Origin: Trypanosoma brucei
Taxonomy: Eukaryota
Direction: 5' to 3'
Assembly (NCBI GenBank): GCA_000002445.1
Contig: CP000070.1
Span: forward strand, 1,408,001-1,472,000
Length of the DNA stretch: 64,000 bases
This document shows positions 15,044-58,000 of this stretch, piece after piece (the stretch's first letter is position 1; each line of letters starts with the position of its first letter). Position numbers and translations under genes: made by a program. The notes under the pieces were generated by a model. That model had not been told where the DNA came from and ran no database searches. It worked only from the letters and a program-made list of their open reading frames with translations.

Positions 15044-15115
15044 AGAACTGAACTGAAATGAAATGAACTGAAATGAAATGAACTGAACTGAAATGAAATG
15101 AACTGAAATGAAAAA
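15044..15115. repeat. pentamer array (GAACT/GAAAT)n, about 14 units
   Basis: agaactgaactgaaatgaaatgaactgaaatgaaatgaactgaactgaaatgaaatgaactgaaatgaaa. Confidence 0.85.
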
Positions 15116-21836: not shown

Positions 21837-22379
21837 ATTCCCCATTGAATACAGCTTAATCCACAGATACGAACATGAGACCAGGGGGAGGAGGGGGGGG
21901 GGGCGTCATACGAGTTGTCAGACGTGGTTTGGGTGACTTACATATCATTACTTTTTCCCTAAGGAAGAGGATTCCCTAATATACATACGTACATCTCCAG
22001 TTTTATTGTTTCTTGTGAATTTGTGTCTTTCAACACAAACTCTTTGAGGAATAGGGTTTCTGCTACGTCACGTATTTTTTTGGTTTTTTTTTATTCCGCT
22101 TTAGAGCAGTTCTTCGTAACTGCAGGGATTCCGCCAGAGCATAAAGCTGTCCTTCTTTTCCCTCTTTTTTTTTTGTTGAACCCTCGTGTATTTTTTTTTT
22201 ATAGATGTTTCTTTGACACCCACACCATATAAATAGACAAAAAAAGCGGGGGTTGTTTACCTTCCCGAATCTACGACTGTTGCCTAAGGGCCTGTTGCCG
22301 CTTACGCCAGACACGTGGACACCTCGCGTGCGGAAAGCGAAAAGGACAGTACAGCGGGGAAAGTAGGCGGTTTCAAATT

Positions 22380-31280: not shown

Positions 31281-32261
31281 AGCCACCGTTCCTTTTGATT
31301 CCTTTTATTATATTATATTTCGTTTTGTTTTTGTTTTTCACATCAGTGCCTTTGCTTACTATCTTCGGTATTTTCCTCTCAGCTCCGCCTCTTTTTTTCT
31401 TTTTTTCCTTTTTTTCCCCGTTTCTGTTTCTGTTTCGGCTCTTTCTTTTATGTTTAAAAAAAAAAAGACCATTTGCTCTTAATAATGACAATTGTTGTTA
31501 TTATTTGTCTTTATTTCCGTTGTATCGCCTTTTGTATTCCTGTGTTTATGACAACCGAAACCGTTTCAGCGGAAGGGTGAGATAAAAAAAAAGGGAGGGG
31601 AAATATGCGGGATCCCTCAATAGAAAACAGAAAAAAGGAAAGGAAAGGAAAGGAAGCAGATAAGAATGTGGAAGATTAAGGAAGGAGGGGGGGGAGATAT
31701 AATGGAGGTGTGGGGGAACAAATGGAAGGGTTTTCTTTACTTTTAAAAAACAAAAGAAAAGAAAACAAAAAAAGATGGAAAAGGGACAAAAAAAGAAAAA
31801 AAGAAATACTGCTCGAGAGGAAGAGGAGAAGAACTAACACACACACACACACACACATACATATATACATACATACATATATATATATATATAGATTACA
31901 CGGAAAAAAAAAGAAGAAAGGAGCGGCATATTTGGTTTTTATCAATCAGTTGCCGTGTGCTGTGGATTAATAAGCGGGTGCGATCGCGTGTGTCGGAAAA
32001 AAAATGACAATGCATTAGTCCTTCCGTTGCAATATATAAATATGTATATATGTATATATGTATATGTGTATATTTATGTATATATATACATATTTATTTG
32101 GATGTTTTACATATTTGTATGTTCCGCTTATATAAATAAATATATATATATACACATATTTAATTATTTTATTTTATTGTTTGTTCATTGACTTACCTGC
32201 GCGCACATGTCCCCGAGTGTCCGTTTGCCTGTCTCCATTTACATGTGTACTTTTATGTGTT

Positions 32262-32263
<2 letters not shown>

Positions 32264-32304
<41 letters not shown>

Positions 32305-32344
32305 TTGTGTGTATGTGTATGTGTATGTGTGTGTGTGTGTGTAT
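32264..32344. repeat. compound microsatellite (AT)n then (TGTGTA)n(TG)n
   Basis: atatatatatatatatatatatatatatatatgtatatttgtgtgtatgtgtatgtgtatgtgtgtgtgtgtgtgt. Confidence 0.9.
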
Positions 32345-37895: not shown

Positions 37896-37917
37896 TCTGC
37901 ACTTGATTTCTTTTCAG
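37896..37917 (+). promoter_or_regulatory. candidate trans-splice acceptor (polypyrimidine tract + AG) 14 nt upstream of ATG 37932
   Basis: ctgcacttgatttcttttcag|gtgaggaagagcggATG. A larger polypyrimidine tract at 37670-37750 is an alternative. Confidence 0.3.
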
Positions 37918-37931
37918 GTGAGGAAGAGCGG

Positions 37932-42155: not shown

Positions 42156-42533
42156 AAAATACTATCCTTCAAGTTGCCTCATTTCTTTTTATTTTTCAAC
42201 ACTTTAATGGTTTTTTGTCGTTTTTTTTTCCAACTTGAACTACCTGTACTACCGTTGCATTTTTTTTTATGAAGTTGGGGTGTTCTCTGCCTTTTTTGTG
42301 GAGATGCAGCCATACTTTGTTACCACTAACGAGTGTGGTAGCTATCTTTTTCGGCTACAGTCGTCACGGATAAGGATGCCTTGCGTGCATTGTGCCGCCA
42401 TCCCTCCATGTATGTCTTCTTGATGATACTCGTTTACTTCTTTCTTTGACCTTTCCCACTGTTTATTTTTGCTGACGTGTACGAAAGAGGCACTGTGACA
42501 CTCCAGTTGCAATTAAGTAATAACACCTGAGGT

Positions 42534-44195
42534 ATGTATACAACAACAGACCTCATACAGACGCGGGTCGCTCCAGCACACTTGTTTGTTATTGTCTACT
42601 TTCTACAGTGGTTGTTTGTGGCGAGTACCGCATCTGGCGAGAGTGTTCATGCGATCTTCAAAATATCGAAATCTGGAGATGCACCCTTCTTCAAACAAGC
42701 TGAGAGGCACTGCGAGCGCGCTAAAATGCGTCTTGCGACGCCGACGACGGCAAAGGGGGCGACTGCTGTGAAGAAGTTGCTGAAACGCTGCGGTCCATCT
42801 GATGTACCCGTACTTGGCGGTGGCCTAAGCGTGCGATGCAGCAGTAACTCTTTTTTCTTCTTGTGGTCACCGAAACTGGATGAACCCAAGTACCCTGTTG
42901 AGGACACAGCACCATACTGCGGGGAACGCGATCCGCGAGGGTGGGGGACCAAGTGTGTGACAAGGAACAGGAGTGCGGGGAGGTTATTTTACCAATTTCA
43001 TACATCTGAGGGCGAGAAAGGGAACTGTACCGGACCTGTGACAATGGACTATGACCCGGCGATTCTCTATGAATTGGAGGTCCCTAGTGCTGGTGAGGAG
43101 GGTCTCCTCGCATGGGTTGTCTCGCGTGGTGGCAAGAACGGAAGCACTGCTGCGCTTAGGAGCCTTCGATCAGACTTGGAGGACACATCCCGCGCATACA
43201 TTGGAGATTCGAGCAAAATGATCGAGTACGTCCTGTGTGAGGGTGGAAGGTCCTCCGTCGTGTCTTCCACATCATGCTATTCCGTTTCTTATGCTTCTGT
43301 GCCAAATGTTGGCGGTTCAAGTCGAACGGGTGTTCATTGGTTGGTGATTGTCTTCCTCTCCTTCATCGGATTGATTGTGTTATGTGTAGTAACCCTGTCT
43401 ATTGTCGGTGGAGTTACGAAAAAAGTAACCGCAGGGAATGTTGATCGGGGAGACAACACTGGTAGTGGACGGCGACGAACCTCTTTGTCTCACAGCAGCT
43501 GGCATGTAATGAGCCAACCAGGAGGCAGCAGCGGGATTCAATATTCTCGTCGTGGTAGCCAGCCGGGTAACATCCTTTCTCCGCTTCAAGATGCTGCGAG
43601 CATTAACATGCAACGCTATGAAAGCGATGGGGTAGCCGCTGTACCTCGGCAAGGAAGCTTTAACGGCAGAAACACACAACAGCGAAGTAGTTTACCAACA
43701 AACGTAAATCAAGCGCAACAAAATTACAACACAAACAGAGTTACGTCACAAGTAAGCAATTATAGCGCAAGCTTACATCGTCTCGGGAGCTTCCGTGGCC
43801 CCATCATCCATCGTCAAGGAAGCTTCAACAACATTACCTCCGTACCAGCAGGGAATACCTATACTGGGGGTTTATCGCGTCCTGGGAGCTTCCGTGGCTC
43901 AAGCCCCAACCATCAAGGAAGTTTTAACCGTAGTGATATATTTCGCGATCCTAGTCTCTATGGTGAATCTCCTCCTCACGGTGATCCACGCTTGGGTTTA
44001 AACCCTCTTCGGGACATTGGCTACGACAGGGGAAATGCCCCAGAGCAGGTGAGCCTTTCTTCGGTCGGTATGGCCCAACAGGGCAACTTTGCAAACGTTG
44101 GTGCACGTGGCGGGAGCTTCCGAGGAATAAACCGCAACCAACAAGGAAGTTTCCGCAACTCGAACCCGCCGTCTGGTGGTTTGTTTAACACGTAG
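42534..44195 (+). CDS. predicted type I membrane protein (signal peptide, ectodomain, single TM, GSF-motif cytoplasmic tail), 553 aa; paralog A1 of the duplicated cassette
   Basis: ATG start. N-terminal signal-peptide-like h-region HLFVIVYFLQWLFVASTASG. Single TM VHWLVIVFLSFIGLIVLCVVTLSIVGGV. The tail carries reiterated (R/Q)GSF(R/N) motifs (RQGSFNGR, LGSFRGP, RQGSFNNI, RPGSFRGS, HQGSFNRS, GGSFRGI, QQGSFRNS). The first about 250 aa and last about 105 aa are near-identical to 49113..50735. Confidence 0.6.
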   Translation: MYTTTDLIQTRVAPAHLFVIVYFLQWLFVASTASGESVHAIFKISKSGDAPFFKQAERHCERAKMRLATPTTAKGATAVKKLLKRCGPSDVPVLGGGLSVRCSSNSFFFLWSPKLDEPKYPVEDTAPYCGERDPRGWGTKCVTRNRSAGRLFYQFHTSEGEKGNCTGPVTMDYDPAILYELEVPSAGEEGLLAWVVSRGGKNGSTAALRSLRSDLEDTSRAYIGDSSKMIEYVLCEGGRSSVVSSTSCYSVSYASVPNVGGSSRTGVHWLVIVFLSFIGLIVLCVVTLSIVGGVTKKVTAGNVDRGDNTGSGRRRTSLSHSSWHVMSQPGGSSGIQYSRRGSQPGNILSPLQDAASINMQRYESDGVAAVPRQGSFNGRNTQQRSSLPTNVNQAQQNYNTNRVTSQVSNYSASLHRLGSFRGPIIHRQGSFNNITSVPAGNTYTGGLSRPGSFRGSSPNHQGSFNRSDIFRDPSLYGESPPHGDPRLGLNPLRDIGYDRGNAPEQVSLSSVGMAQQGNFANVGARGGSFRGINRNQQGSFRNSNPPSGGLFNT

Positions 44196-45365
44196 GGAGT
44201 TCGCGCCATCTTTTGGCTTCACCCAATGGGAGTAGTTTGGTGTTGCTTGCTGACGTGCCTTTGACCAATGCGGAGATGAGTACATCCGCATATCGAACCA
44301 ATTAGTTACTACAGCGTCTGTGTTAGGTCATTGCCTTACATCCTTCGCTACTTCACTGTATCATCGGATTGAGTATTTTACCACTGTTACTCCCCTCTAC
44401 ATATATTCGCGTTTATACCCTTACCCTACGGTTTTGTCAAATATATATATATATACATGTGTGTGCGTGTGAAGTTTCCCCCACTTTGTTTTGAGTGCAT
44501 TCGCTACGACATGCGTGACAGTGACGCTATTTGGACCACTTCGTTGCGTACGTATCGTAGGCTGCACAGCGAGCACCTTCGCATCGCCTCATTGTTTACG
44601 ATGTGGTCACGCTCCACCCTCTCTTTTTCACTGCGACATGGTTGAACTATGAGTTTGGAGTTGACCCTCCATAGTACTGTCGTGTATTTCGTGTTATTCT
44701 TTTTTTTTTCTCTGTTGTCTCCGCTTGTGCCTTGCTTATGCTTCTATTTTCTTTGTGCCTTCTATTTCCCCGTTTCCGTCAGTGGCTCTACAGTCTGAGT
44801 GAGTGCGGTGGTGAAATGCGGTGTATTGCGCAATGCGCGTGTCAACTGCTTCCTTTCCTTTTGTTTGATATTATTTCCCTCATCATTTTCTTTTCAGACG
44901 TTTTATTATTTTCTGTTATTATTATTATTATTTATTTTTTATTCTTTGCTCATTCATTACCGAGGGTACCGTAATAGATATGATGTGGTATTGGCTTACT
45001 GCTACACCTTTTCTTACTATCCCGCAACCTTGTTCTAGTCCTTTGGAGGGGGTAAGTCACTCCAGAGATTACGATGGGATAAAATGAGTCGGCCGATTGT
45101 TTATATGTTACTCGGGGTGCGCAATGCTGAACGTTTTGTTGTGTGTACAGAGGATTCTTTGCCTTCTTTACTCTTTACCATGTTCTTTCAATTATTTTCT
45201 TACTTCTCCCATAATAGTAAGGTGTGATTATACTCAAGTGGATATCCGTGTGTGACGTGTGCTGGTGCCAATAGGCGTGCTAAACACACGAGTCTCCCTC
45301 TTCAGTGATAAACTCGATTTAACATTTATTTGTAATTCTTACCACTGACCATTCATCTTCATGCG

Positions 45366-48086
45366 ATGTCTGCCTCTCGATCTCCCTCTGGCAGTGGGAG
45401 TTTGTATCCCGCTGGCACCATGTCAACGGGATGTTCCCTGCCTTCATTGACGTGTCCCCCGAAACTTGGTGTGGGCAAGGTTGAGGGCAGTAGCGACACT
45501 GTTTCCATGGAGCGCTCGCAAGCTGGCAGCCAGTGGGCCGGCGGGACACATGCTGAAGAAGTGTGGGCATGCAAAAATGCTGCTTACACCAGGGCAATGA
45601 AATATTCCAAAGGATTGGTTGCGGACGTGGTGGATAGTTCGGTAGAATTCCTGCCACGCCGTCTCATGAGGAGTTCTGTGAACCACAGTATAAAGGACAG
45701 GAAATCGTCTTTCAGTGTCATGGCTGATGTTGGGCGCGACACGCAACAGCAATCTTTGGCTGCCACAAGCTGCAAAGGTACTTCATCCACTCCCATGAGT
45801 GAAGCCACATTCCCATTCCTTGACGGTGGGAAGGTACAACCAACGGATCCAGGGCACCTAAAAGCTGGAATTACGTACGATCCGCAGTCGTATGGATCGC
45901 TTTTACCCACGACGCTGAAGGTACGATCCGTTGAGGAAGCTGTGAGTGGCCCTCTAATGGGGGTTGCGGCTAACGAAATGTTTGCAAACCGAGATGCTAA
46001 ACAGATGTTGAGGGGTATTCTCCAGCCGGTACAGAAGACTTCGCAATTTTCACAGTACTTTGATCGACAACAGTTTGAGGGTAAAATGAGGCAGTTGGAG
46101 GAAAGCGCGCGACACTTCAGCAAATGTCTTGCTCAGCGTGTGTCTTCCAGTACCGGTGGTGGTGGTGTGATGATTGTCGTAAACGATTCTGATGATGGGA
46201 GCTCCGACGACGGTGGTTTGATGGGTGACGGTGTGAGACGCAGAGCTCGAAAGCCCGCCAAAATGGTAGACGAAGCGCGAGTAGCTGGCGACGCTGAATC
46301 TAATGCCCGGAAACAGCGACTTAACGCACTTCGTTGCACTCCACAGAATCTTTGTAGCTCGGTGGCGTTGCGTGATGCGTTGAAGAAAAGCAGGATTACG
46401 GTGAAGAAAGCACGATGCAGTGCTGTTAATGTAGCAAGACACAGCTCTGATCTACTGGAGCTTCTGCGGAGGAGAGGATCGAGGAGCACTGGTCCCCAGG
46501 AAGCGATGGTTGTTTTGCCCAACGAAGAGGTTTCATGGGACACGGGATCTGTTTCACCGAATAAGTGTACCCAAGCCTCATTTGCGTCGATACCGGATTC
46601 TGCATGTGGTAATGAGGGTCACCGCACCAAGGTTGTTACAGACCAGCGCGCTGTAACAATGCTGGAGTCGTTTTTGCGCAGCGGCAAGGGATTGACGACT
46701 CATGGTATTTTACCTGCAACACTGTATGGCAATCACTGTGGCCCCAATGGCGGCCAGTTGATCCCTGCACCAGAATCTTCGCGGTTACCATCAATGCTAG
46801 ATACTGCTTTCAGTGATGTTTTCTCCACTGGTGCATTATCACCAAGTGGGCAGCAGCTAGCGGCATCAGCAGAGTGCTTGCAACAGCAGAGGAAAAGTGT
46901 CCACCGTACGAAACCAGCCCGCCGTGTGATTCCTGTTGGTTACGGGATGAGTGCTCGTGCCCGTCAAAACTACGAGGCGATGGTGGAGAACTGGGAGGTG
47001 AGTGAGATCGAGCAAGAGCTTCGGAACGGGGAAGCATTATGCCACGCCCGCCGTCGGCTGCTGAAGCTCGTGTCTGAGCGCAAACGGTTGTTAAACGCGT
47101 CGCTCGCGCACTTCCACCATAACCCGCAGCAAGCCGTGTCGCTGCAGCGGCGTGAGATATTCCGGATGGTTGTCGAGGTTGATGCCGAGGACCGTAAGCA
47201 GGCGTGTTTTTCATTTGTTGATTTGCTTGAACAGTGCTGCCGGAACACTCTGGATGATGCCGCATGGTCTGTTGTTTCCGGCGCCTTGAAGTCTAGCCGC
47301 GATCTTATCCAACTCTCTCCACTACGGTGCAACCCGCAGAATTTCATTTCCATTCTGAACGACTGTCTGTCATTGCAGCATATCCGGGATCAGCGCGTTC
47401 AAGATGCTCTACAGTGGTTAGCAAAACTCTTTGGTGTATCGCAAGGGCAATTCAAGTCTGCACTACAATCATTGCACCACAACCTCAACAAGCCACGCGA
47501 TTACGAGGCACGGTTCCATGAAATTGACAGCCGCGTGTGTGGGATAGCAGCGTCCACTGAGAGACGTGTTCGTATTAAACTGCGCCGTTGCAACTTTCAG
47601 CTTCCCCGTCCTGTGGGTGCTGGCAACCAAATGAACCCCCTTGTCACCAGCAATGGTGATGGCGCTGTGGGCTGTGTGTTGGGTCCCAACACCTGTGTTG
47701 ATCGTCCTGAAGTATCGCTCGTTTTTCAGCTGGGAAATGAAACTGCCGTCTCCTCAACACTCAGCGCTCATCGTAGCGGTACCGGAGGGAGTGGTGATGT
47801 GGTGTGTGAGATGGTTGATGACGCCCCGTGCTATGTGGTTGACTTCAATGACGAAATTGTGCAGCTGAAGACTGTGGACACCAGTGTGGTACGCGTCTCT
47901 CTTTACTGCAACGGCAACGTTCTTTGCAGTGGCTTCTTGCACCTGTCCAAGTGTACTTTCCACAGTAATCGTACCTTATCTGTCATTCTTCGTCTCGACA
48001 ACAAAAGAATATTTGTGGCTGATCTGAGGATCAATGTGGAGCTTGTGTATGGAAGGGACCGCCGGGGGCGGGGTGGGAGAAGGTAG
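45366..48086 (+). CDS. hypothetical Ser-rich soluble protein, 906 aa; paralog B1 of the duplicated cassette
   Basis: ATG start, 2721 nt ORF. Differs from 51902..54622 in only 4 residues (P/S, N/S, T/P, Y/S). An acidic DSDDGSSDDGG segment is present. No recognisable domain. Confidence 0.6.
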   Translation: MSASRSPSGSGSLYPAGTMSTGCSLPSLTCPPKLGVGKVEGSSDTVSMERSQAGSQWAGGTHAEEVWACKNAAYTRAMKYSKGLVADVVDSSVEFLPRRLMRSSVNHSIKDRKSSFSVMADVGRDTQQQSLAATSCKGTSSTPMSEATFPFLDGGKVQPTDPGHLKAGITYDPQSYGSLLPTTLKVRSVEEAVSGPLMGVAANEMFANRDAKQMLRGILQPVQKTSQFSQYFDRQQFEGKMRQLEESARHFSKCLAQRVSSSTGGGGVMIVVNDSDDGSSDDGGLMGDGVRRRARKPAKMVDEARVAGDAESNARKQRLNALRCTPQNLCSSVALRDALKKSRITVKKARCSAVNVARHSSDLLELLRRRGSRSTGPQEAMVVLPNEEVSWDTGSVSPNKCTQASFASIPDSACGNEGHRTKVVTDQRAVTMLESFLRSGKGLTTHGILPATLYGNHCGPNGGQLIPAPESSRLPSMLDTAFSDVFSTGALSPSGQQLAASAECLQQQRKSVHRTKPARRVIPVGYGMSARARQNYEAMVENWEVSEIEQELRNGEALCHARRRLLKLVSERKRLLNASLAHFHHNPQQAVSLQRREIFRMVVEVDAEDRKQACFSFVDLLEQCCRNTLDDAAWSVVSGALKSSRDLIQLSPLRCNPQNFISILNDCLSLQHIRDQRVQDALQWLAKLFGVSQGQFKSALQSLHHNLNKPRDYEARFHEIDSRVCGIAASTERRVRIKLRRCNFQLPRPVGAGNQMNPLVTSNGDGAVGCVLGPNTCVDRPEVSLVFQLGNETAVSSTLSAHRSGTGGSGDVVCEMVDDAPCYVVDFNDEIVQLKTVDTSVVRVSLYCNGNVLCSGFLHLSKCTFHSNRTLSVILRLDNKRIFVADLRINVELVYGRDRRGRGGRR

Positions 48087-49112
48087 GAACGGCTCGTGAG
48101 TCTGTGTGGCCTTTGCTCACATAAATGGTCACGGGATTAACGTTCGAATGTATGTGTATCTTTGTGCATATGTGCACTGTGCGTTTGCTGTAACATGAAA
48201 CTGTCCTGGATATGATAATGTTTCTTCACGCTTGTGTTTTATTGGTTTGCGTAAACGGGAACCGTCACATGAGCAATGTTAGCCTTTCTTTTTTTCCTTT
48301 ACTTGCTGTACATGTTATGGATGAGAGCCTTGTTTGTTCTGCTCTTTATCCTTCCCTCTCTCATACACACACTTTCACCGTTTCTTTTCCATTATTTTAT
48401 AACTGATTGATGGTCATTAGAGGTCGAGTGTGCTTCACTGCTGGGGTAGCGGTAAGGGGCGCGCAAAAACCCACACGTTTGTGTGGTGTCATTGAGGCTG
48501 GTAATGGAAGGTCGTTTACTCTCCAGTATTTTTCGGAATTACGATTTGTATTTTTATCATAGTGAGTAATTTGTTTTTTTCTAGACTTCATGCACACCTT
48601 TTAGATTTTCTGTTGCTGTTTTAAAGAACGATGTATTATTTTTGTCGTTTTGTTACTGCTGCTCCCATTTTTTATCTATTCGTCCCTTATTATGGTGTGA
48701 GCTCTTTTAACTTTACTGCCGTTATGGCACTGTGGCTGAGGCAATCTTTTAAAACTTTAGATTAATTTTTTTTTAAAATCACTTTTATGGTTTTTTGTCG
48801 TTTTTTTTTCCAACTGAACTACCTGTACTACCGTTGCATTTTTTTTTATGAAGTTGGGGTGTTCTCTGCCTTTTTTGTGGAGATGCAGCCATACTTTGTT
48901 ACCACTAACGAGTGTGGTAGCTATCTTTTTCGGCTACAGTCGTCACGGATAAGGATGCCTTGCGTGCATTGTGCCGCCATCCCTCCATGTATGTCTTCTT
49001 GATGATACTCGTTTACTTCTTTCTTTGACCTTTCCCACTGTTTATTTTTGCTGACGTGTACGAAAGAGGCACTGTGACACTCCAGTTGCAATTAAGTAAT
49101 AACACCTGAGGT

Positions 49113-50735
49113 ATGTATACAACAACAGACCTCATACAGACGCGGGTCGCTCCAGCACACTTGTTTGTTATTGTCTACTTTCTACAGTGGTTGTTTGTGG
49201 CGAGTACCGCATCTGGCGAGAGTGTTCATGCGATCTTCAAAATATCGAAATCTGGAGATGCACCCTTCTTCAAACAAGCTGAGAGGCACTGCGAGCGCGC
49301 TAAAATGCGTCTTGCGACGCCGACGACGGCAAAGGGGGCGACTGCTGTGAAGAAGTTGCTGAAACGCTGCGGTCCATCTGATGTACCCGTACTTGGCGGT
49401 GGCCTAAGCGTGCGATGCAGCAGTAACTCTTTTTTCTTCTTGTGGTCACCGAAACTGGATGAACCCAAGTACCCTGTTGAGGACACAGCACCATACTGCG
49501 GGGAACGCGATCCGCGAGGGTGGGGGACCAAGTGTGTGACAAGGAACAGGAGTGCGGGGAGGTTATTTTACCAATTTCATACATCTGAGGGCGAGAAAGG
49601 GAACTGTACCGGACCTGTGACAATGGACTATGACCCGGCGATTCTCTATGAATTGGAGGTCCCTAGTGCTGGTGAGGAGGGTCTCCTCGCATGGGTTGTC
49701 TCGCGTGGTGGCAAGAACGGAAGCACTGCTGCGCTTAGGAGCCTTCGATCAGACTTGGAGGACACATCCCGCGCATACATTGGAGATTCGAGCAAAATGA
49801 TCGAGTACGTCCTGTGTGAGGGTGGAAGGTCCTCCGTCGTGTCTTCCACATCATGCTATTCCGTTCCTTTTATCCTATCAGTTGCAAGTAGCGATGACAA
49901 GTCGCATTTTGATCATCGGCACAACGTCACTATTGGTATATTGGTTTTAATTGTTTTAATTTTAATTATTGTAGCCGCTTTCTTAATTTTGTGGCTCCTT
50001 TCACGGAACCGTCCGGCAGGTGATGTTGAGGAAAACCGGCGCAACGGATCAGATGTACAGAGAACTGTCGTTGAGTCGGTTGGTGATTTAGGTGGAACTG
50101 TTAGATCCGAAAGCTACTCGGGGCGAGGTAGCAAGTCGGGTGACAATCTTTGTCGTCCGGAAAATGTAAACGGTAATTGTCCCCAGGTGAATAATGGATT
50201 CTGTGTTAACGGATCCCCCCAACAAGAAAATTTGCAAATGAATGCCCCTGGACAACAACCAAATTTTAACTACCACAGCACAACACCCGAAATACAAACA
50301 TACAGTGGCGAAATGGAACTACGGACTAACTTTGGTGGTCCTATCTTGTACCGCCAAGGAAGCTTCAGACAAAATATAACCTCCGACGTCAATCCAACAC
50401 CGCTAAGCGCCACACAGCGTCCTGGGAGCTTCCGTGGCTCAAGCCCCAACCATCAGGGTTGTTTCAACCGTAGTGATGTATTTCGTGAGCCTAGTCTCTA
50501 TGGTGAATCTCCTCCTCACGGTGATCCACGCTTGGGTTTAAACCATCCTCGGGACATTGGCTACGACAGGGGAAATGCCCCGGAGCAGGTGAGCCTTTCT
50601 TCGGTCGGTATGGCCCAACAGGGCAACTTTGCAAACGTTGGTGCACGTGGCGGGAACTTCCGAGGAATAAACCGCAACCAACAAGGAAGTTTCCGCAACT
50701 CGAACCCGCCGTCTGGTGGTTTGTTTAACACGTAG
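49113..50735 (+). CDS. predicted type I membrane protein, 540 aa; paralog A2 (mosaic relative of 42534..44195)
   Basis: Identical signal peptide and ectodomain through ...SSTSCYSV, then a different module (49865-50417) with its own TM TIGILVLIVLILIIVAAFLILWLL. The tail reconverges at RPGSFRGSSPNHQG(C)FNRSD..GGNFRGINRNQQGSFRNSNPPSGGLFNT. Confidence 0.6.
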   Translation: MYTTTDLIQTRVAPAHLFVIVYFLQWLFVASTASGESVHAIFKISKSGDAPFFKQAERHCERAKMRLATPTTAKGATAVKKLLKRCGPSDVPVLGGGLSVRCSSNSFFFLWSPKLDEPKYPVEDTAPYCGERDPRGWGTKCVTRNRSAGRLFYQFHTSEGEKGNCTGPVTMDYDPAILYELEVPSAGEEGLLAWVVSRGGKNGSTAALRSLRSDLEDTSRAYIGDSSKMIEYVLCEGGRSSVVSSTSCYSVPFILSVASSDDKSHFDHRHNVTIGILVLIVLILIIVAAFLILWLLSRNRPAGDVEENRRNGSDVQRTVVESVGDLGGTVRSESYSGRGSKSGDNLCRPENVNGNCPQVNNGFCVNGSPQQENLQMNAPGQQPNFNYHSTTPEIQTYSGEMELRTNFGGPILYRQGSFRQNITSDVNPTPLSATQRPGSFRGSSPNHQGCFNRSDVFREPSLYGESPPHGDPRLGLNHPRDIGYDRGNAPEQVSLSSVGMAQQGNFANVGARGGNFRGINRNQQGSFRNSNPPSGGLFNT

Positions 50736-51901
50736 GGAGTTCGCGCCATCTTTTGGCTTCACCCAATGGGAGTAGTTTGGTGTTGCTTGCTGACGTGCCT
50801 TTGACCAATGCGGAGATGAGTACATCCGCATATCGAACCAATTAGTTACTACAGCGTCTGTGTTAGGTCATTGCCTTACATCCTTCGCTACTTCACTGTA
50901 TCATCGGATTGAGTATTTTACCACTGTTACCCCCCTCTACATATATTCGCGTTTATACCCTTACCCTACGGTTTTGTCAAATATATATACATACATATGT
51001 GTGCGTGTGAAGTTTCCCCCACTTTGTTTTGAGTGCATTCGCTACGACATGCGTGACAGTGGCGCTATTTGGACCACTTCGTTGCGTACGTATCGTAGGC
51101 TGCACAGCGAGCACCTTCGCATCGCCTCATTGTTTACGATGTGGTCACGCTCCACCCTCTCTTTTTCACTGCGACATGGTTGAACTATGAGTTTGGAGTT
51201 GACCCTCCATAGTACTGTCGTGTATTTCGTGTTATTCGTTTTTTTTTCTGTTGTCTCCGCTTGTGCCTTGCTTATGCTTCTATTTTCTTTGTGCCTTCTA
51301 TTTCCCCGTTTCCGTCAGTGGCTCTACAGTCTGAGTGAGTGCGGTGGTGAAATGCGGTGTATTGCGCAATGCGCGTGTCAACTGCTTCCTTTCCTTTTGT
51401 TTGATATTATTTCCCTCATCATTTTCTTTTCAGACGTTTTATTATTTTCTGTTATTATTATTATTATTTATTTTTTATTCTTTGCTCATTCATTACCGAG
51501 GGTACCGTAATAGATATGATGTGGTATTGGCTTACTGCTACACCTTTTCTTACTATCCCGCAACCTTGTTCTAGTCCTTTGGAGGGGGTAAGTCACTCCA
51601 GAGATTACGATGGGATAAAATGAGTCGGCCGATTGTTTATATGTTACTCGGGGTGCGCAATGCTGAACGTTTTGTTGTGTGTACAGAGGATTCTTTGCCT
51701 TCTTTACTCTTTACCATGTTCTTTCAATTATTTTCTTACTTCTCCCATAATAGTAAGGTGTGATTATACTCAAGTGGATATCCGTGTGTGACGTGTGCTG
51801 GTGCCAATAGGCGTGCTAAACACACGAGTCTCCCTCTTCAGTGATAAACTCGATTTAACATTTATTTGTAATTCTTACCACTGACCATTCATCTTCATGC
51901 G

Positions 51902-54622
51902 ATGTCTGCCTCTCGATCTCCCTCTGGCAGTGGGAGTTTGTATCCCGCTGGCACCATGTCAACGGGATGTTCCCTGCCTTCATTGACGTGTCCCCCGAAA
52001 CTTGGTGTGGGCAAGGTTGAGGGCAGTAGCGACACTGTTTCCATGGAGCGCTCGCAAGCTGGCAGCCAGTGGGCCGGCGGGACACATGCTGAAGAAGTGT
52101 GGGCATGCAAAAATGCTGCTTACACCAGGGCAATGAAATATTCCAAAGGATTGGTTGCGGACGTGGTGGATAGTTCGGTAGAATTCCTGCCACGCCGTCT
52201 CATGAGGAGTTCTGTGAACCACAGTATAAAGGACAGGAAATCGTCTTTCAGTGTCATGGCTGATGTTGGGCGCGACACGCAACAGCAATCTTTGGCTGCC
52301 ACAAGCTGCAAAGGTACTTCATCCACTCCCATGAGTGAAGCCACATTCCCATTCCTTGACGGTGGGAAGGTACAACCAACGGATCCAGGGCACCTAAAAG
52401 CTGGAATTACGTACGATCCGCAGTCGTATGGATCGCTTTTACCCACGACGCTGAAGGTACGATCCGTTGAGGAAGCTGTGAGTGGCCCTCTAATGGGGGT
52501 TGCGGCTAACGAAATGTTTGCAAACCGAGATGCTAAACAGATGTTGAGGGGTATTCTCCAGCCGGTACAGAAGACTTCGCAATTTTCACAGTACTTTGAT
52601 CGACAACAGTTTGAGGGTAAAATGAGGCAGTTGGAGGAAAGCGCGCGACACTTCAGCAAATGTCTTGCTCAGCGTGTGTCTTCCAGTACCGGTGGTGGTG
52701 GTGTGATGATTGTCGTAAACGATTCTGATGATGGGAGCTCCGACGACGGTGGTTTGATGGGTGACGGTGTGAGACGCAGAGCTCGAAAGCCCGCCAAAAT
52801 GGTAGACGAAGCGCGAGTAGCTGGCGACGCTGAATCTAATGCCCGGAAACAGCGACTTAACGCACTTCGTTGCACTCCACAGAATCTTTGTAGCTCGGTG
52901 GCGTTGCGTGATGCGTTGAAGAAAAGCAGGATTACGGTGAAGAAAGCACGATGCAGTGCTGTTAATGTAGCAAGACACAGCTCTGATCTACTGGAGCTTC
53001 TGCGGAGGAGAGGATCGAGGAGCACTGGTCCCCAGGAAGCGATGGTTGTTTTGCCCAACGAAGAGGTTTCATGGGACACGGGATCTGTTTCACCGAATAA
53101 GTGTACCCAAGCCTCATTTGCGTCGATACCGGATTCTGCATGTGGTAATGAGGGTCACCGCACCAAGGTTGTTACAGACCAGCGCGCTGTAACAATGCTG
53201 GAGTCGTTTTTGCGCAGCGGCAAGGGATTGACGACTCATGGTATTTTACCTGCAACACTGTATGGCAATCACTGTGGCCCCAATGGCGGCCAGTTGATCT
53301 CTGCACCAGAATCTTCGCGGTTACCATCAATGCTAGATACTGCTTTCAGTGATGTTTTCTCCACTGGTGCATTATCACCAAGTGGGCAGCAGCTAGCGGC
53401 ATCAGCAGAGTGCTTGCAACAGCAGAGGAAAAGTGTCCACCGTACGAAACCAGCCCGCCGTGTGATTCCTGTTGGTTACGGGATGAGTGCTCGTGCCCGT
53501 CAAAACTACGAGGCGATGGTGGAGAACTGGGAGGTGAGTGAGATCGAGCAAGAGCTTCGGAACGGGGAAGCATTATGCCACGCCCGCCGTCGGCTGCTGA
53601 AGCTCGTGTCTGAGCGCAAACGGTTGTTAAACGCGTCGCTCGCGCACTTCCACCATAACCCGCAGCAAGCCGTATCGCTGCAGCGGCGTGAGATATTCCG
53701 GATGGTTGTCGAGGTTGATGCCGAGGACCGTAAGCAGGCGTGTTTTTCATTTGTTGATTTGCTTGAACAGTGCTGCCGGAACACTCTGGATGATGCCGCA
53801 TGGTCTGTTGTTTCCGGCGCCTTGAAGTCTAGCCGCGATCTTATCCAACTCTCTCCACTACGGTGCAACCCGCAGAATTTCATTTCCATTCTGAACGACT
53901 GTCTGTCATTGCAGCATATCCGGGATCAGCGCGTTCAAGATGCTCTACAGTGGTTAGCAAAACTCTTTGGTGTATCGCAAGGGCAATTCAAGTCTGCACT
54001 ACAATCATTGCACCACAACCTCAACAAGCCACGCGATTACGAGGCACGGTTCCATGAAATTGACAGCCGCGTGTGTGGGATAGCAGCGTCCACTGAGAGA
54101 CGTGTTCGTATTAAACTGCGCCGTTGCAACTTTCAGCTTCCCCGTCCTGTGGGTGCTGGCAGCCAAATGAACCCCCTTGTCACCAGCAATGGTGATGGCG
54201 CTGTGGGCTGTGTGTTGGGTCCCAACACCTGTGTTGATCGTCCTGAAGTATCGCTCGTTTTTCAGCTGGGAAATGAAACTGCCGTCTCCTCAACACTCAG
54301 CGCTCATCGTAGCGGTACCGGAGGGAGTGGTGATGTGGTGTGTGAGATGGTTGATGACGCCCCGTGCTATGTGGTTGACTTCAATGACGAAATTGTGCAG
54401 CTGAAGCCTGTGGACACCAGTGTGGTACGCGTCTCTCTGTCCTGCAACGGCAACGTTCTTTGCAGTGGCTTCTTGCACCTGTCCAAGTGTACCTTCCACA
54501 GTAATCGTACCTTATCTGTCATTCTTCGTCTCGACAACAAAAGAATATTTGTGGCTGATCTGAGGATCAATGTGGAGCTTGTGTATGGAAGGGACCGCCG
54601 GGGGCGGGGTGGGAGAAGGTAG
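51902..54622 (+). CDS. hypothetical Ser-rich soluble protein, 906 aa; paralog B2
   Basis: Same length and frame as 45366..48086, with 4 aa differences. Confidence 0.6.
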   Translation: MSASRSPSGSGSLYPAGTMSTGCSLPSLTCPPKLGVGKVEGSSDTVSMERSQAGSQWAGGTHAEEVWACKNAAYTRAMKYSKGLVADVVDSSVEFLPRRLMRSSVNHSIKDRKSSFSVMADVGRDTQQQSLAATSCKGTSSTPMSEATFPFLDGGKVQPTDPGHLKAGITYDPQSYGSLLPTTLKVRSVEEAVSGPLMGVAANEMFANRDAKQMLRGILQPVQKTSQFSQYFDRQQFEGKMRQLEESARHFSKCLAQRVSSSTGGGGVMIVVNDSDDGSSDDGGLMGDGVRRRARKPAKMVDEARVAGDAESNARKQRLNALRCTPQNLCSSVALRDALKKSRITVKKARCSAVNVARHSSDLLELLRRRGSRSTGPQEAMVVLPNEEVSWDTGSVSPNKCTQASFASIPDSACGNEGHRTKVVTDQRAVTMLESFLRSGKGLTTHGILPATLYGNHCGPNGGQLISAPESSRLPSMLDTAFSDVFSTGALSPSGQQLAASAECLQQQRKSVHRTKPARRVIPVGYGMSARARQNYEAMVENWEVSEIEQELRNGEALCHARRRLLKLVSERKRLLNASLAHFHHNPQQAVSLQRREIFRMVVEVDAEDRKQACFSFVDLLEQCCRNTLDDAAWSVVSGALKSSRDLIQLSPLRCNPQNFISILNDCLSLQHIRDQRVQDALQWLAKLFGVSQGQFKSALQSLHHNLNKPRDYEARFHEIDSRVCGIAASTERRVRIKLRRCNFQLPRPVGAGSQMNPLVTSNGDGAVGCVLGPNTCVDRPEVSLVFQLGNETAVSSTLSAHRSGTGGSGDVVCEMVDDAPCYVVDFNDEIVQLKPVDTSVVRVSLSCNGNVLCSGFLHLSKCTFHSNRTLSVILRLDNKRIFVADLRINVELVYGRDRRGRGGRR

Positions 54623-55039
54623 GAACGGCTCGTGAGTCTGTGTGGCCTTTGCTCACATAAATGGTCACGGGATTAACGTTCGAATGTATGTGTATCTTTG
54701 TGCATATGTGCACTGTGCGTTTGCTGTAACATGAAACTGTCCTGGATATGATAATGTTTCTTCACGCTTGTGTTTTATTGGTTTGCGTAAACGGGAACCG
54801 TCACATGAGCAATGTTAGCCTTTCTTTTTTTCCTTTACTTGCTGTACATGTTATGGATGAGAGCCTTGTTTGTTCTGCTCTTTATCCTTCCCTCTCTCAT
54901 ACACACACTTTCACCGTTTCTTTTCCATTATTTTATAACTGATTGATGGTCATTAGAGGTCGAGTGTGCTTCACTGCTGAGGTAGCGGTAAGGGGCGCGC
55001 AAAAACCCACACGTTTGTGTGGTGTCATTGAGGCTGGTA

Positions 55040-58000
55040 ATGGAAGGTCGTTTACTCTCCAGTATTTTTCCGTATTCTGTATGTTTTCCTAACAGGTTGT
55101 CATACCGTAGATATCTATGTGGATTACGGTTTATCAAGTTTCTTACGTTTTTTCCTGGCAATACTCGTGCGAATGGTTATTGCGATAATCTTTTTTTGGG
55201 TTTTAACCTTTATTGTCAACGTAACGTTTCTGGAAGGGCATATAACGGGCGCAATATCGATATCCCTAGTCCCCCGGCACCTCTAACTCTGAATTCGTTG
55301 GTATCTTACGTGACGGAATTGCGTTTGTTACACAGATCATGTGGCGTATCGGTGTCAGCTTCTCGCGTTCGATTCCAAGCACGTGAGTTTCTTACTCGTG
55401 GTATTGCGAAAGATCTCTTTTGCTCTGATACCGACAAGGGGAGTACTGCATTGTGCAATGGTGGAATGAATGAGGAGTGCGCCACGGCATTACTTTTGAC
55501 GTGTGGATATTTTGAGTTGTCTATCTTTGAGTGCGGTTGCGGTTATGAATGTGTGGAACTGCTTTCCTCCCTTTGGAGTAGTCGTCTTGTTTCGTCACTT
55601 TCACCTCCATGCAGTTGTGCAGCTGCAGGCGATGCCGGCCGTTTGACTCTTTCAGTTCTTGGTATGCTTACGAGCGGTGGTGTGCGAACTTCTGCGGAAA
55701 ATCGTGATAAATTACTACAGTTTCTGTGTAAAATATTGTTACCTGTTACGTTGCGTCTCGTTCAAGAAGAGTCGCTTTTTGTGACTTTCACTACCGACGC
55801 AGAAAGGGCAATGACCAACGATGGGGGAGCTGCCTTTTCGACATTAATTTCGGCCCTAACTAAAGCTGCTGTGGCGGGGTGGATTTGTGGCGATCGTTCA
55901 TCAGGCAGTGGCAGGGTTGCTTTCGGGGTGCCATCTTTGCCACAGGCGTTCTCCCGGAAGCGAGAGGTCTCGGGCCCATTATTTCACACATTAGCGCAGG
56001 GAGATGCCATCGACTGTAGCCGCCTGGCTTCGGTGATGCAGATGTATGCTGGATGCTTAGTAAACGATCATCTGAAAGGGTCTGCTTCACAAGTATTACG
56101 TTTTTTTACGCTTACACAGTGTGTTCCGCAGTTAGTTGCACTGGCAGACCATTACCAAGAGGGCGATAGGCGCGTAAGTTTGGTTGCGTCGCTTGTGCGG
56201 TCTGTAACTGCTGTCCTCCTGGCGTCTTTGGATGTTAAGGGCACAAACGTCTCCCACCTAGTCGCAAGCATTGCCTGTTCCTACGCGCGTATTTTGACAT
56301 TCCCCTCAGAAGAGAAAGCTGCGACTACCGCAACATCATATGGTATTACGAAAGCGAAGGAGCCACAAAAACCGTCGTGGACACTTTTCAGGGACGTCAC
56401 AATTGGCGTAAGAAATAATATGCTCTACGGAAATGAGGTGCTTTCGCCGGCTGTTGTACTGCTCCATTTGTGTGAACGTGTGACACCCTTTGCACACAAG
56501 TATTTGTTTTCGGATTTGGCAGCATTACTTAATGCCCTGGGAAAGATATATAGAGTGGCGGTAGTGCACTTCAACCGGCGCGCAACCACTTCCAAAAAAA
56601 TTACTGAAAAGGCTCACTGTGATGAAGGTAATTGCGGTTCACGAGAAACTTGGAAAGTATCTAGCAAGACGTTCACTCACTCGCGTTTCGAGCGTCGCGG
56701 ATCTGCCACGTGTGTCCAACAAGCTCATCTTTCCCCCACCCACGGGGCAATGGTTAGTGAAAGCACAGAATCTCCTCAGGTGGGATTGACTTCACCATAT
56801 TCACTCGCTCTTCCCTTTGCTGTTAATGCCGAGGACATCGCCGAGATCGAGGGCGAGTTAGAAGTGCTGCTAACTTCTGTTGTAACTGTAATGGAAAGAC
56901 ACATGCCATCTACTCGGAACGGACGACCAGTTTTTGTGTCGCGGGCAAACTTTACAACGGATGATTCAGTATGTGCTGAAGAGTGTGTGGATATGAGCCG
57001 CAAGGGATGTGCTACCGATGGGCGAAAGCACTACGCGGAGGATACTAGTGGACTACAGTCTGTGCCCACAGCCCGTGCAAAGGAACTTGGTGGCAGAAGC
57101 CGTCTGCTAAAGAAGTCGGTTGCTGGTAAAGAGCTGGTGTTGATTGCCGAAGGTCTCCACACCCTTGGCTGGAGGTCTTTTGTTGCATTTCAGGATCGTT
57201 TACTGATGTCACTCTCGTCACAGTTGGGGCAAGAGGTGCTTAGTGGAAGACAGTACGCGTCTCTTGTTTGTCTTTTGCTTCGTGCACCTCCTGTATTAGC
57301 CTCCGTCGTTTTTCACGCAGTGGAGGATCGGCTTAAGCGACTTATTCATTCAGACGCAGTTACAATCACGGAGGAATTTAACACTGAAGAATCCAAAGAA
57401 AGTCAGGGGGTTTCTCAAGTGGTGGTTGCCCTCCCGCATGCACGTGCCATTCAGGATGAGTCAATTTCTTTGTGCGAGGCGTGTGCCGTTATCTTCGGTT
57501 TCGCGTCAAAAATGGGGAAAAATGCCCTCTCTCTGCTGAATGACCTTTTCATCCGCTGCGGAAATCGTGTGCTTGTGGAAGTACCTTTGTCGAATAGCCG
57601 CCTTGATGAAAATGTTGAGGGCGCCTTAACGATGTTTGTGGCGAGCTCCACATGGGTTCTTGCCAACTCTTTGGCGGGACGGTCAGGGTCGCAGCACTCC
57701 GGCAAGGAAAAATCAGTAATATCCTTCATTAAACGAGCTCGTGATCATGCAGCACATGCCTTATGTGTTTCCTTATTTATGGGAAATACTGTTGGCAACC
57801 CACTATCGCTGATTTCAGTGGAAGCAGTTGCAAATGCCTGTATGATGTTGGAGTGCTGTGGCAGCAGATCCGACAAGAATATAGAACAAATTCATGGTCA
57901 CTTGAAACGTGCGTATGCTTTTTTGGTCTCGCAGTGCGACAGTCGCGAACTTGCGCAACTACTGGAAGGCTTCGTAGGACGCAAACAACTGGTTGGGCCA

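What the first reader, a model, noticed from the sequence alone, without database searches (positions are those of the whole stretch)
42218..55070. Direct tandem duplication of a 6.3 kb two-gene cassette with a 257-bp unique spacer
Two colinear copies (42218-48535 and 48793-55070) each carry a signal-peptide/TM protein gene plus a 906-aa Ser-rich protein gene, together with their intergenic DNA. The 906-aa genes differ at only about 6 nt (4 aa). The intergenic microsatellites differ in length. This looks like a recent duplication or one maintained by gene conversion, not two ancient paralogs. The tandem duplication could be real biology (copy-number amplification of a membrane-protein locus) or an assembly representation of a longer array. 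Either way it is the dominant structural feature of the window.
Basis: seen in the sequence. Interest (0 to 1): 0.6.

Follow-up and report, generated by a model that had tools for sequence, protein, structure and literature searches.

The report
Old tandem gene-pair duplication, partly homogenised
This is a real, already-annotated tandem duplication of a membrane-protein gene plus a C2-domain-protein gene on Trypanosoma brucei chromosome 7; it is old but kept about 99.4% identical by gene conversion, except for a 0.55-0.59 kb block that gives the two membrane proteins different transmembrane and membrane-proximal segments.

Summary
The duplication is real. Copy 1 is 42186-48534 and copy 2 is 48766-55070, with a 231-nt unique spacer. 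The copies are 99.4% identical in two colinear pieces. The window is T. brucei brucei TREU927 chromosome 7, and the four ORFs match deposited proteins AAZ12604-AAZ12607 exactly.

It has saturated synonymous sites and 26% amino-acid identity. It encodes the transmembrane helix and the membrane-proximal cytoplasmic tail.

T. b. gambiense DAL972 has the same two copies, junction and block types. Outside the block, 36 sites group the copies by strain and 14 group them by position. Inside the block the counts are 0 and 242. So this is an old duplication with flanks homogenised by gene conversion, not a recent one.

The T. b. equiperdum IVM-t1 assembly holds one recombinant cassette. T. vivax has a tandem duplication of the same cassette with different breakpoints. 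T. theileri and T. grayi have one cassette.

Protein A is a conserved type I membrane protein with an RQGSF-repeat tail: seven GSF motifs in A1, three in A2. Protein B ends in a C2 fold.

This is an ordinary kind of trypanosome tandem array, with a modestly new mosaic detail.

The parts
42186..48534 (+). Copy 1 of the duplicated cassette (6349 nt): 5' flank, gene A1, intergenic region, gene B1 and 448 nt after the B1 stop codon
   Evidence: Self-BLAST; five-sequence alignment
48535..48765 (+). Unique 231-nt junction spacer between the copies. It has no significant match to either outer flank. The best match is 14 of 16 nt to 42100-42115.
   Evidence: The same junction is crossed without a gap in T. 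b. gambiense DAL972.
48766..55070 (+). Copy 2 of the duplicated cassette (6305 nt). It ends 31 nt after an ATG at 55040, which is where the downstream gene is called in DAL972.
42534..44195 (+). Gene A1, 553 aa, identical to AAZ12604 (inferred Tb927.7.5400). It has a signal peptide and an ectodomain of about 230 aa with 8 Cys (6 invariant across the genus) and 3 N-glycosylation sequons. A TM helix lies at about 264-298. The cytoplasmic tail carries 7 xGSF motifs.
43291..43876 (+). Conversion-resistant divergent block in copy 1 (A1 codons 253-448): stalk, TM helix and membrane-proximal tail. This is the ancestral-like version.
45366..48086 (+). Gene B1, 906 aa, identical to AAZ12605 (inferred Tb927.7.5410). 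The N-terminal half is predicted disordered. A helical domain spans about 530-724 and a C-terminal C2-fold beta-sandwich spans about 733-895.
47871..47905 (+). Short patch in B1 (counterpart 54407-54441 in B2) with three copy-specific differences (T836P, Y847S) that are shared by TREU927 and DAL972. This patch has not been homogenised.
49113..50735 (+). Gene A2, 540 aa, identical to AAZ12606 (inferred Tb927.7.5420). Its ectodomain and distal tail match A1, but its TM and membrane-proximal segment differ. Only 3 xGSF motifs keep the Ser.
49870..50416 (+). Divergent block in copy 2 (A2 codons 253-435). This is the derived, faster-evolved version.
51902..54622 (+). Gene B2, 906 aa, identical to AAZ12607 (inferred Tb927.7.5430)
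37932..42155 (+). Single-copy upstream flanking gene (1407 aa). Its stop codon ends 30 nt before the left edge of copy 1.
55019..61006 (+). Single-copy downstream flanking gene (ORF of 1995 aa; called as 1987-1988 aa in other strains). In T. equiperdum OVI it is followed by the 806-aa lipin gene.

Best explanation
An old tandem segmental duplication on T. brucei chromosome 7 carries a two-gene cassette. Gene A encodes a type I membrane glycoprotein and gene B encodes a C2-domain protein. The duplication predates the split of T. b. brucei and T. b. gambiense.

Repeated interlocus gene conversion, or unequal exchange, between the two copies keeps about 5.75 kb of each copy (coding and intergenic DNA) nearly identical. 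A block of 0.55-0.59 kb inside gene A is now too diverged to recombine, and may also be protected by selection. It evolves independently in the two copies.

The outcome has two parts. Gene B, with all shared processing and UTR flanks, is present in a doubled and essentially identical dose. Gene A gives two isoforms that share one ectodomain and one distal tail. They differ in the transmembrane helix and membrane-proximal tail, and A2 has lost most of the RxxSF motifs.

Shown: the anatomy, presence in two subspecies, the site patterns, the age of the block, and conservation of both block types.

Inferred: gene conversion as the process, dosage as the benefit for B, and different sorting or signalling for A1 versus A2.
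For: - Identity of the locus: the four ORFs equal TREU927 proteins AAZ12604-AAZ12607.
- Structure: two colinear 99.4% segments interrupted by a non-alignable block.
- Presence in a second subspecies: DAL972 has both copies, the same spacer and both block types. Its only gap is 100 N inside B1. T. equiperdum OVI carries both block types either side of a 10-N scaffold gap.
- Site patterns for TREU927 c1/c2 against DAL972 c1/c2. In the flanks, 36 sites group the copies by strain and 14 group them by position. The 14 cluster at the block edges, at the left end and in a 35-nt patch in B. In the block, 242 sites group by position and none by strain.
- At 32 of the 36 strain-grouping sites, IVM-t1 carries the DAL972 state and OVI carries the TREU927 state. 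Both copies therefore carry the same allele of old polymorphisms.
- Block divergence: pS 0.77 (saturated), dN 0.95, 26% amino-acid identity. The blocks are still colinear homologues (BLASTP E 1.7e-9; shuffle z 20.7).
- Both blocks are conserved between subspecies, with dN/dS of about 0.38 and 0.17 on small counts.
- In the block, A1 is closer than A2 to the T. congolense, T. theileri and T. grayi homologues: 0.32, 0.32 and 0.33 against 0.23, 0.20 and 0.17. For T. vivax both are 0.20.
- Two of the copy-specific differences kept in the otherwise homogenised tail are S463C and S528N. Each removes the Ser of a GSF motif in A2.
- Tandem arrays under concerted evolution, read as a way to raise dosage in promoter-less polycistronic units, are documented for T. 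brucei (PMC1855330).
Against: - No reads were available, so copy number and the junction in TREU927 rest on deposited assemblies.
- The DAL972 and OVI assemblies may have been ordered against TREU927 (my recollection, not checked here). Pooling of reads from near-identical copies could inflate apparent within-strain identity in those assemblies.
- One assembly, T. b. equiperdum IVM-t1, shows a single cassette.
- The counts behind the between-strain dN/dS values are small (3-5 changes).
- No expression, localisation or phosphorylation data for A1 or A2 were found.
- Gene conversion is inferred from site patterns and was not observed directly.
Confidence: 0.8

Rival explanations
1. Recent duplication. 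The cassette duplicated only shortly before the T. brucei subspecies diverged. The A2 block was then replaced by ectopic conversion or insertion from another locus, or diverged extremely fast.
For: The flanks are 99.4% identical. The A2 block is further from every outgroup except T. vivax than A1 is, so part of the distance reflects acceleration on the A2 branch.
Against: Synonymous sites in the block are saturated, which selection on the protein cannot produce. The two blocks are colinear homologues. No other protein carrying the A2-type block was found among 5.8 billion clusters; only the A1, A2 and T. congolense clusters appeared. The A2 block matches nothing else in the window. The strain-grouped site pattern in the flanks still requires homogenisation after the strains diverged.
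Confidence: 0.06
2. Assembly artefact. Either two alleles of a heterozygous single-copy locus were laid out in tandem, or a longer array was collapsed to two units.
For: The T. b. equiperdum IVM-t1 assembly has one cassette. It combines the A1-type block with the copy-2-type patch in B, as a collapse or an unequal crossover would produce. The DAL972 and OVI assemblies have gaps within the repeat. Two Logan short-read contigs start about 120 nt upstream of gene B.
Against: A specific 231-nt junction joins B1's 3' flank to A2's 5' flank, and it recurs with its own SNPs in DAL972 in a contig without gaps. Both block types sit on one scaffold in OVI. Alleles would not differ by a saturated 0.55-0.59 kb block while being 99.4-100% identical around it. 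T. vivax shows the same kind of tandem duplication in an ungapped contig.
Confidence: 0.05
3. One very old duplication shared by all salivarian trypanosomes. On this reading the T. brucei and T. vivax duplications are the same event, and the junctions were later remodelled by deletion.
For: Both species carry a tandem A-B-A-B arrangement at the syntenic site, while T. theileri and T. grayi carry one cassette. The A1/A2 block divergence is at least as deep as the A1-T. congolense divergence. The T. brucei spacer could be the remnant of flank-gene fragments like those still present in T. vivax.
Against: The breakpoints differ. The T. vivax unit of about 8.0-8.1 kb includes the last 186 nt of the upstream gene and about 2.2 kb of the downstream gene (a 767-aa truncated ORF). 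The T. brucei unit stops 30 nt after the upstream stop codon and about 30 nt into the downstream ORF. The T. vivax A copies have no divergent TM block and differ only in the number of 36-nt repeats. The T. brucei spacer shows no significant similarity to either flanking gene. Only one A and one B homologue were found for T. congolense.
Confidence: 0.15

Closest known systems
Tandem gene arrays of T. brucei evolving in concert (Jackson 2007, PMC1855330)
   Same: Head-to-tail repeats on one strand of a polycistronic unit. Coding and intergenic DNA are homogenised together. Copies are more alike within a genome than between genomes. Dosage is the usual explanation, and the paper notes that structural disruption can shield duplicates from homogenisation.
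   Different: There are only two units, and each holds two unrelated genes. The copies cluster by strain even between T. b. brucei and T. b. gambiense, whereas that paper reports sequences of these two as usually interspersed. A sharply bounded internal block escapes homogenisation. The locus does not appear in that paper's Table S3, which has no chromosome 7 entry between 1,138,174 and 1,501,093. I did not determine the locus's TREU927 coordinate, so the link to that gap in the table is an estimate.
[quoted passage not shown] 2010, PMC2854126)
   Same: These are segmental tandem duplications that include membrane-protein genes and produce paralogous isoforms with large protein divergence. The paper cites 30-40% divergence.
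   Different: Those cases are specific to one subspecies. This duplication is shared by both subspecies with the same junction, and its divergence is confined to one block.
Paired receptors of vertebrate immune cells (KIR, Ly49, PIR/LILR). This is a functional analogy from my own knowledge, not tested.
   Same: Neighbouring duplicated genes have near-identical ectodomains, homogenised by conversion, and different transmembrane and cytoplasmic signalling segments.
   Different: There is no sequence or fold relationship. No ITIM/ITAM-type motifs or charged TM residue were examined. Signalling by protein A is hypothetical.
C2-domain proteins (for protein B only)
   Different: No Pfam C2 match was found, nor any other Pfam match at E<=0.01. 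Calcium-binding loop residues were not examined. The rest of the protein (disordered N-terminal half, helical domain 530-724) has no identified relative outside kinetoplastid-like sequences.

Membership tests
Tandem gene array under concerted evolution (T. brucei type) | Two or more head-to-tail copies on the same strand, including intergenic DNA | tested here: met
   period about 6.54-6.58 kb, all four genes on the + strand
Tandem gene array under concerted evolution (T. brucei type) | Copies within one genome are more alike than positional orthologues between genomes | tested here: met
   In the flanks, T1-T2 and G1-G2 identity is about 0.99-1.00 in most 250-nt windows, against T1-G1 and T2-G2 identity of 0.95-1.00. 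There are 36 strain-grouping sites and 14 position-grouping sites. This is not met inside the block 43291-43876, where the counts are 0 and 242.
Tandem gene array under concerted evolution (T. brucei type) | Single origin of the duplication in the genomes compared, so that similarity is not due to independent recent duplications | tested here: met
   TREU927 and DAL972 share the same spacer, the same boundaries and the same two block types
Tandem gene array under concerted evolution (T. brucei type) | Copy number confirmed by reads or read depth | not testable with these tools
   No read data were available. Assemblies disagree: two copies in TREU927, DAL972 and OVI, and one in IVM-t1.
C2 domain (protein B, C-terminus) | Eight-stranded beta-sandwich that superposes on solved C2 domains | tested here: met
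C2 domain (protein B, C-terminus) | Match to the Pfam C2 sequence profile | tested here: not met
   No Pfam family at E<=0.01. At E<=10 the only hit was a spurious DpnD-PcfM match.
C2 domain (protein B, C-terminus) | Calcium- or lipid-binding loop residues | not tested
   The loops were not inspected.
C-type lectin-like / Link module fold (protein A ectodomain) | Significant sequence-profile or fold match to CTLD or Link domains | tested here: inconclusive
The AlphaFold2 model of the ectodomain failed (pLDDT 35), so no fold search was run.
Assembly artefact (alleles placed in tandem) | The junction is absent from independent assemblies | tested here: not met
   The junction is present and ungapped in DAL972 at 98.8% identity.

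The most novel reading that the evidence does not exclude
A1 and A2 may form a trypanosome 'paired receptor'. Conversion keeps their ligand-facing ectodomains identical, while selection preserves two different transmembrane and membrane-proximal modules. A1 has seven RxxSF/xGSF phospho-type motifs. A2 has three, and even within the homogenised tail it carries Ser-removing substitutions that are conserved across subspecies. One extracellular cue would then be routed to two different sorting or signalling fates. The separate tandem duplication of the same cassette in T. vivax would indicate repeated selection for two copies in bloodstream-dwelling salivarian trypanosomes.
Probability: 0.15. Interest if true: 0.6.

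Novelty: new member of a known kind. Interest (0 to 1): 0.3.

Why it matters
For annotation, it shows that four reference genes (inferred Tb927.7.5400-5430) form one old duplicated unit. The two 'hypothetical conserved' membrane proteins are real isoforms that differ only in the TM and membrane-proximal module, so reagents against the ectodomain or the distal tail cannot distinguish them. For short-read work, about 5.75 kb per copy is effectively non-unique, while the block and the spacer are the only copy-specific markers.

For biology, it is a compact natural example of a sharp boundary between homogenised and conversion-resistant DNA within one gene. It could be used to study homology limits of recombination in trypanosomes. 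It also flags a conserved, uncharacterised type I membrane protein family with a multi-RQGSF cytoplasmic tail across the genus Trypanosoma. None of this is surprising in kind, because tandem arrays with concerted evolution are a textbook feature of trypanosome genomes.

Tried and rejected
- Structure of the A ectodomain. AlphaFold2 with a 2-sequence alignment gave pLDDT 35, which is unusable, so no fold search was run on it.
- CTLD/Link idea for the A ectodomain. Three weak hints were all far below significance. I do not claim this fold.
- Homologues of A. The word-indexed searches found only the T. brucei and T. congolense clusters. The T. vivax, T. theileri and T. grayi homologues were found only through synteny next to B.
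- Pfam. No hits for A, B or either flanking gene.
- Rfam at gathering threshold on the whole window. No matches.
- Spacer origin. Local alignment of the 231-nt spacer to both outer flanks found only a 14-of-16-nt match, which is not significant.
- Independent confirmation of the junction from short-read assemblies.
- Literature. Searches for gene IDs Tb927.7.5400-5450 found only a yeast two-hybrid listing of Tb927.7.5430 with SF3a60. Nothing was found in the held supplements of the surface-proteome and cell-surface phylome papers. The locus is absent from the tandem-array catalogue.
- Idea that the two block versions are unrelated DNA. Rejected because the proteins align colinearly (E 1.7e-9, shuffle z 20.7).

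Full report

Yes. A self-BLAST of the window gives two colinear matches. The first is 42186-43290 to 48766-49869, at 99.37% over 1106 columns with 4 mismatches. The second is 43877-48534 to 50417-55070, at 99.40% over 4658 columns with 24 mismatches. The repeat finder shows the same offsets of 6536-6579 nt. The only other internal repeat in the window is a 102-nt tandem array at 24329-25212.

The ORF map shows gene A at 42534-44195 (553 aa) and 49113-50735 (540 aa). Gene B is at 45366-48086 and 51902-54622 (906 aa each). All are on the + strand, between a 1407-aa gene that ends at 42155 and a gene of about 1990 aa that starts near 55019-55040.

The copies start at 42186 and 48766, so the unique spacer is 48535-48765, which is 231 nt. 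The B genes differ at 7 nt, giving 4 amino-acid changes. The intergenic length differences are three indels of 1-2 nt.

**2.

Between the two matched segments lies a block of 586 nt in copy 1 (43291-43876) and 547 nt in copy 2 (49870-50416). Sensitive blastn finds no similarity there except in the last ~50 nt. In a MAFFT alignment the identity falls to 0.50-0.57, which is close to what unrelated sequence gives.

The block lies inside gene A, at A1 codons 253-448. It encodes the short stalk, the single transmembrane helix (about 264-298) and the membrane-proximal two-thirds of the cytoplasmic tail.

At the protein level the two versions are 26% identical. They are still colinear homologues, with BLASTP E 1.7e-9 over 144 residues and a local alignment score 20.7 SD above shuffles. 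Synonymous sites are saturated (pS 0.77; dN 0.95). By contrast, the N-terminal 252 codons differ at one nucleotide, and the last 105 codons have dS 0.07.

**3. Where the window comes from**

The four proteins are identical to T. brucei brucei TREU927 entries AAZ12604, AAZ12605, AAZ12606 and AAZ12607, which are consecutive genes on a 2,205,233-nt chromosome.

The YEATS protein at 1810-3798 fits Tb927.7.5310, the only chromosome 7 YEATS gene named in PMC8559703. In T. equiperdum OVI the gene after the ~1990-aa gene is an 806-aa lipin, and lipin is Tb927.7.5450. Counting back gives A1 = Tb927.7.5400, B1 = 5410, A2 = 5420 and B2 = 5430. These identifiers are my inference and were not looked up.

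The duplication is therefore already present and annotated in the reference genome as four 'hypothetical protein, conserved' genes.

**4. Other strains**

- *T. b. gambiense DAL972 (L002).* It has A1 (553 aa), B1 interrupted by a 100-N gap, the same spacer, A2 (540 aa), B2 and the downstream gene. The stretch from B1 across the junction into the downstream gene is colinear with the window at 98.8% without gaps.
- *T. equiperdum OVI (L005).* It holds the A1-type block, then a 10-N scaffold gap, then the A2-type block, B and the downstream gene. Both block types therefore exist in that strain.
- *T. b. equiperdum IVM-t1 (L001).* It has a single cassette in an ungapped stretch. At the copy-specific sites it carries copy-1 states up to 44116 and copy-2 states at 47871-47905. 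That is the product expected from an unequal crossover between the two copies, and also from an assembler collapsing them. I cannot tell which applies.
- *Two Logan short-read contigs from other runs.* They start about 120 nt upstream of B and run into the downstream gene. They say nothing about copy number.

**5. Concerted evolution**

I aligned TREU927 copies 1 and 2, DAL972 copies 1 and 2 and the IVM-t1 cassette. I then classified every variable site with a base in all four TREU927 and DAL972 sequences.

Outside the block, 36 sites have the pattern (T1=T2) differing from (G1=G2). Only 14 sites have (T1=G1) differing from (T2=G2). Those 14 are clustered at five places:
- 42195-42199, at the left edge;
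- 43287, at the left edge of the block;
- 43916-44116, just right of the block;
- 47871-47905, a patch in B.

Inside the block there are 242 position-grouping sites and no strain-grouping sites.

At 32 of the 36 strain-grouping sites the IVM-t1 cassette carries the DAL972 state and OVI carries the TREU927 state. Where they cover the site, the Logan contigs usually carry the DAL972 state. These are therefore old polymorphisms, and each chromosome lineage carries the same allele in both copies.

The junction, boundaries and block types are shared, so the duplication arose once before these lineages separated. The flank pattern then requires sequence transfer between the copies afterwards, by gene conversion or unequal exchange.

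One caveat applies. In shotgun assemblies, reads from near-identical copies can be pooled, which would exaggerate within-strain identity. This cannot explain T1=T2 at 36 sites in the TREU927 reference, where the two copies are otherwise resolved at 28 substitutions.

**6. Age of the duplication**

The saturated synonymous divergence of the block means the two A genes separated long ago. In the block, A1 is closer to the single T. congolense homologue (0.32-0.35) than to A2 (0.26). A1 is also closer than A2 to the T. theileri homologue (0.32 versus 0.20) and the T. grayi homologue (0.33 versus 0.17). Against T. vivax the two are equal at 0.20.

A1 therefore keeps the ancestral-like module and A2 is the faster-evolving one. 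The split could predate the T. brucei/T. congolense divergence, or it could be younger with strong acceleration in A2. I cannot decide between these without T. congolense DNA.

Both block types are conserved between subspecies. A1 has 5 non-synonymous and 4 synonymous changes, and A2 has 3 and 5. Both therefore appear to be functional.

**7. Other species**

phmmer against 1.84 billion representatives found full-length B homologues at 28-38% identity in six proteins:
- T. congolense (CCD17164), on the same WGS contig as the A homologue CCD17162;
- T. vivax;
- T. grayi;
- T. theileri;
- T. cruzi marinkellei;
- one unnamed Logan protein.

Synteny then revealed A homologues that the word-indexed searches had missed. 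The order upstream gene, A, B, downstream gene is conserved as a single cassette in T. theileri (L007) and T. grayi (L008).

T. vivax (L006, an ungapped contig) has its own tandem duplication. 6936-8772 matches 14902-16738 at 99.2%, and 8428-14317 matches 16538-22427 at 99.5%, where the locus ends. Its unit of about 8.0-8.1 kb begins 186 nt before the stop of the upstream gene. It also includes about 2.2 kb of the downstream gene, leaving a truncated 767-aa ORF that matches residues 85-754 of the T. brucei protein at 39% identity.

The breakpoints therefore differ from those in T. brucei. The T. vivax A copies have no divergent block. They differ only in the number of 36-nt repeats, giving proteins of 474 and 522 aa. 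I read this as an independent duplication of the same cassette. A single older event with later remodelling is not excluded.

**8. What the genes encode**

*Protein A.* It is a type I membrane protein with these features:
- an N-terminal hydrophobic signal;
- an ectodomain of about 230 aa with six Cys invariant across six sequences from five species, and three N-x-S/T sequons;
- one TM helix;
- a Ser/Gly-rich cytoplasmic tail built from repeats of an RQGSF-type motif.

The tail motif forms perfect 12-aa arrays in T. vivax (ERQQSFRSGNPM), near-perfect arrays in T. theileri and T. grayi, and degenerate copies in T. brucei.

R-x-x-S-F resembles the consensus of basophilic protein kinases. That is my own knowledge, and phosphorylation was not tested.

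A1 has seven xGSF motifs and A2 has three. Two of the copy-specific substitutions that survive in the otherwise homogenised distal tail are S463C and S528N. Each removes the motif's Ser in A2, and both are shared by TREU927 and DAL972. This is suggestive of selection for a motif-poor isoform, but it is an inference.

The fold of the ectodomain is unresolved.

**9. Mechanism**

The cassette was duplicated in tandem. The two copies share their 5' flanks, their A-B intergenic region and 448 nt downstream of B. All signals for trans-splicing, polyadenylation and mRNA stability are therefore duplicated with them.

In an organism that transcribes genes polycistronically without gene-specific promoters, duplication is the usual route to higher dosage (PMC1855330). 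That is the likely benefit for B and for total A.

Homologous recombination between the copies keeps erasing differences wherever long identical tracts exist. The block has passed the divergence at which recombination can start or extend, and it now acts as a barrier. This fits the decay of homogenisation next to it at 43916-44116.

Unequal crossover between the copies predicts single-cassette alleles such as the one in the IVM-t1 assembly.

**10. Novelty and score**

The kind of feature is well known, and the genes are annotated in the reference. I did not find this locus described. Table S3 of the T. brucei tandem-array catalogue has no chromosome 7 entry between 1,138,174 and 1,501,093. That is where I estimate the locus lies, but I did not determine its TREU927 coordinate. 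The gene identifiers are also absent from the catalogue's held supplements.

Three details seem new but modest:
- the sharply bounded conversion-resistant TM module;
- the loss of motif serines in A2;
- the separate duplication in T. vivax.

Interest is 0.3.

Noticed in passing
L006 (T. vivax, GCA_021307395.1 contig SOPI01000350.1) 6936-22427: T. vivax has its own tandem duplication of the syntenic A-B cassette, 99.2-99.5% identical with a unit of about 8.0-8.1 kb. The breakpoints differ from T. brucei. It leaves a truncated 767-aa copy of the downstream gene (12771-15074) that runs on into the duplicated last 186 nt of the upstream gene.
   Followed up: partly
L006 8428-8774 and 16394-16884: A 36-nt tandem repeat encodes ERQQSFRSGNPM in the cytoplasmic tail of the T. 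vivax A homologue. Its copy number differs between the two tandem gene copies (474 versus 522 aa). Similar RQGSF repeat arrays occur in T. theileri (L007 7323-8921) and T. grayi (L008 7548-7934).
   Followed up: partly
L001 (T. b. equiperdum IVM-t1, CM010678.1) 9662-16001: This assembly has a single cassette that combines the copy-1-type TM block with the copy-2-type patch in gene B. It is either a real unequal-crossover deletion allele or an assembly collapse.
   Followed up: partly
L008 (T. grayi) 6355-7934: The A homologue is split into two called ORFs of 354 and 128 aa. The second holds the RQGSF repeats. This is probably a frameshift or sequencing error within the repeat array.
   Followed up: no
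window 24329-25212: A 102-nt tandem repeat of 8.7 copies at 98% identity lies in frame inside the 1147-aa ORF 24263-27706. It would give a 34-aa repeat. That protein has no Pfam domain.
   Followed up: no
window 14000-20000 and 32000-38000: Two long AT-rich stretches (GC 0.25-0.34, against about 0.46-0.50 elsewhere) contain no ORF of 200 aa or more, apart from one 200-aa ORF at 32207-32809. The second stretch is rich in indels between strains: 93.8% identity with 42 gap openings against IVM-t1 over 32605-34990.
   Followed up: no
window 45366-48086 / 51902-54622 (protein B residues 586-749): The helical domain of B has distant relatives (E 1e-5 to 1e-16) in much longer unnamed proteins of 1149-2488 aa from Logan assemblies. 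Their organisms are unknown, and the four of them scanned (P0025, P0026, P0027, P0031) have no Pfam domain.
   Followed up: partly
window 5045-7285: This 746-aa ORF carries DUF7761, DUF7762 and DUF7759 domains (E 1e-15 to 5e-42). It is an uncharacterised conserved protein upstream of the locus.
   Followed up: no
PMC1855330 Table S3: The published catalogue of T. brucei tandem pairs and arrays lists multi-gene repeat units elsewhere. It has no chromosome 7 entry between 1,138,174 and 1,501,093, so this two-gene duplication seems to have been missed. The TREU927 coordinate of the locus was estimated, not determined.
   Followed up: partly
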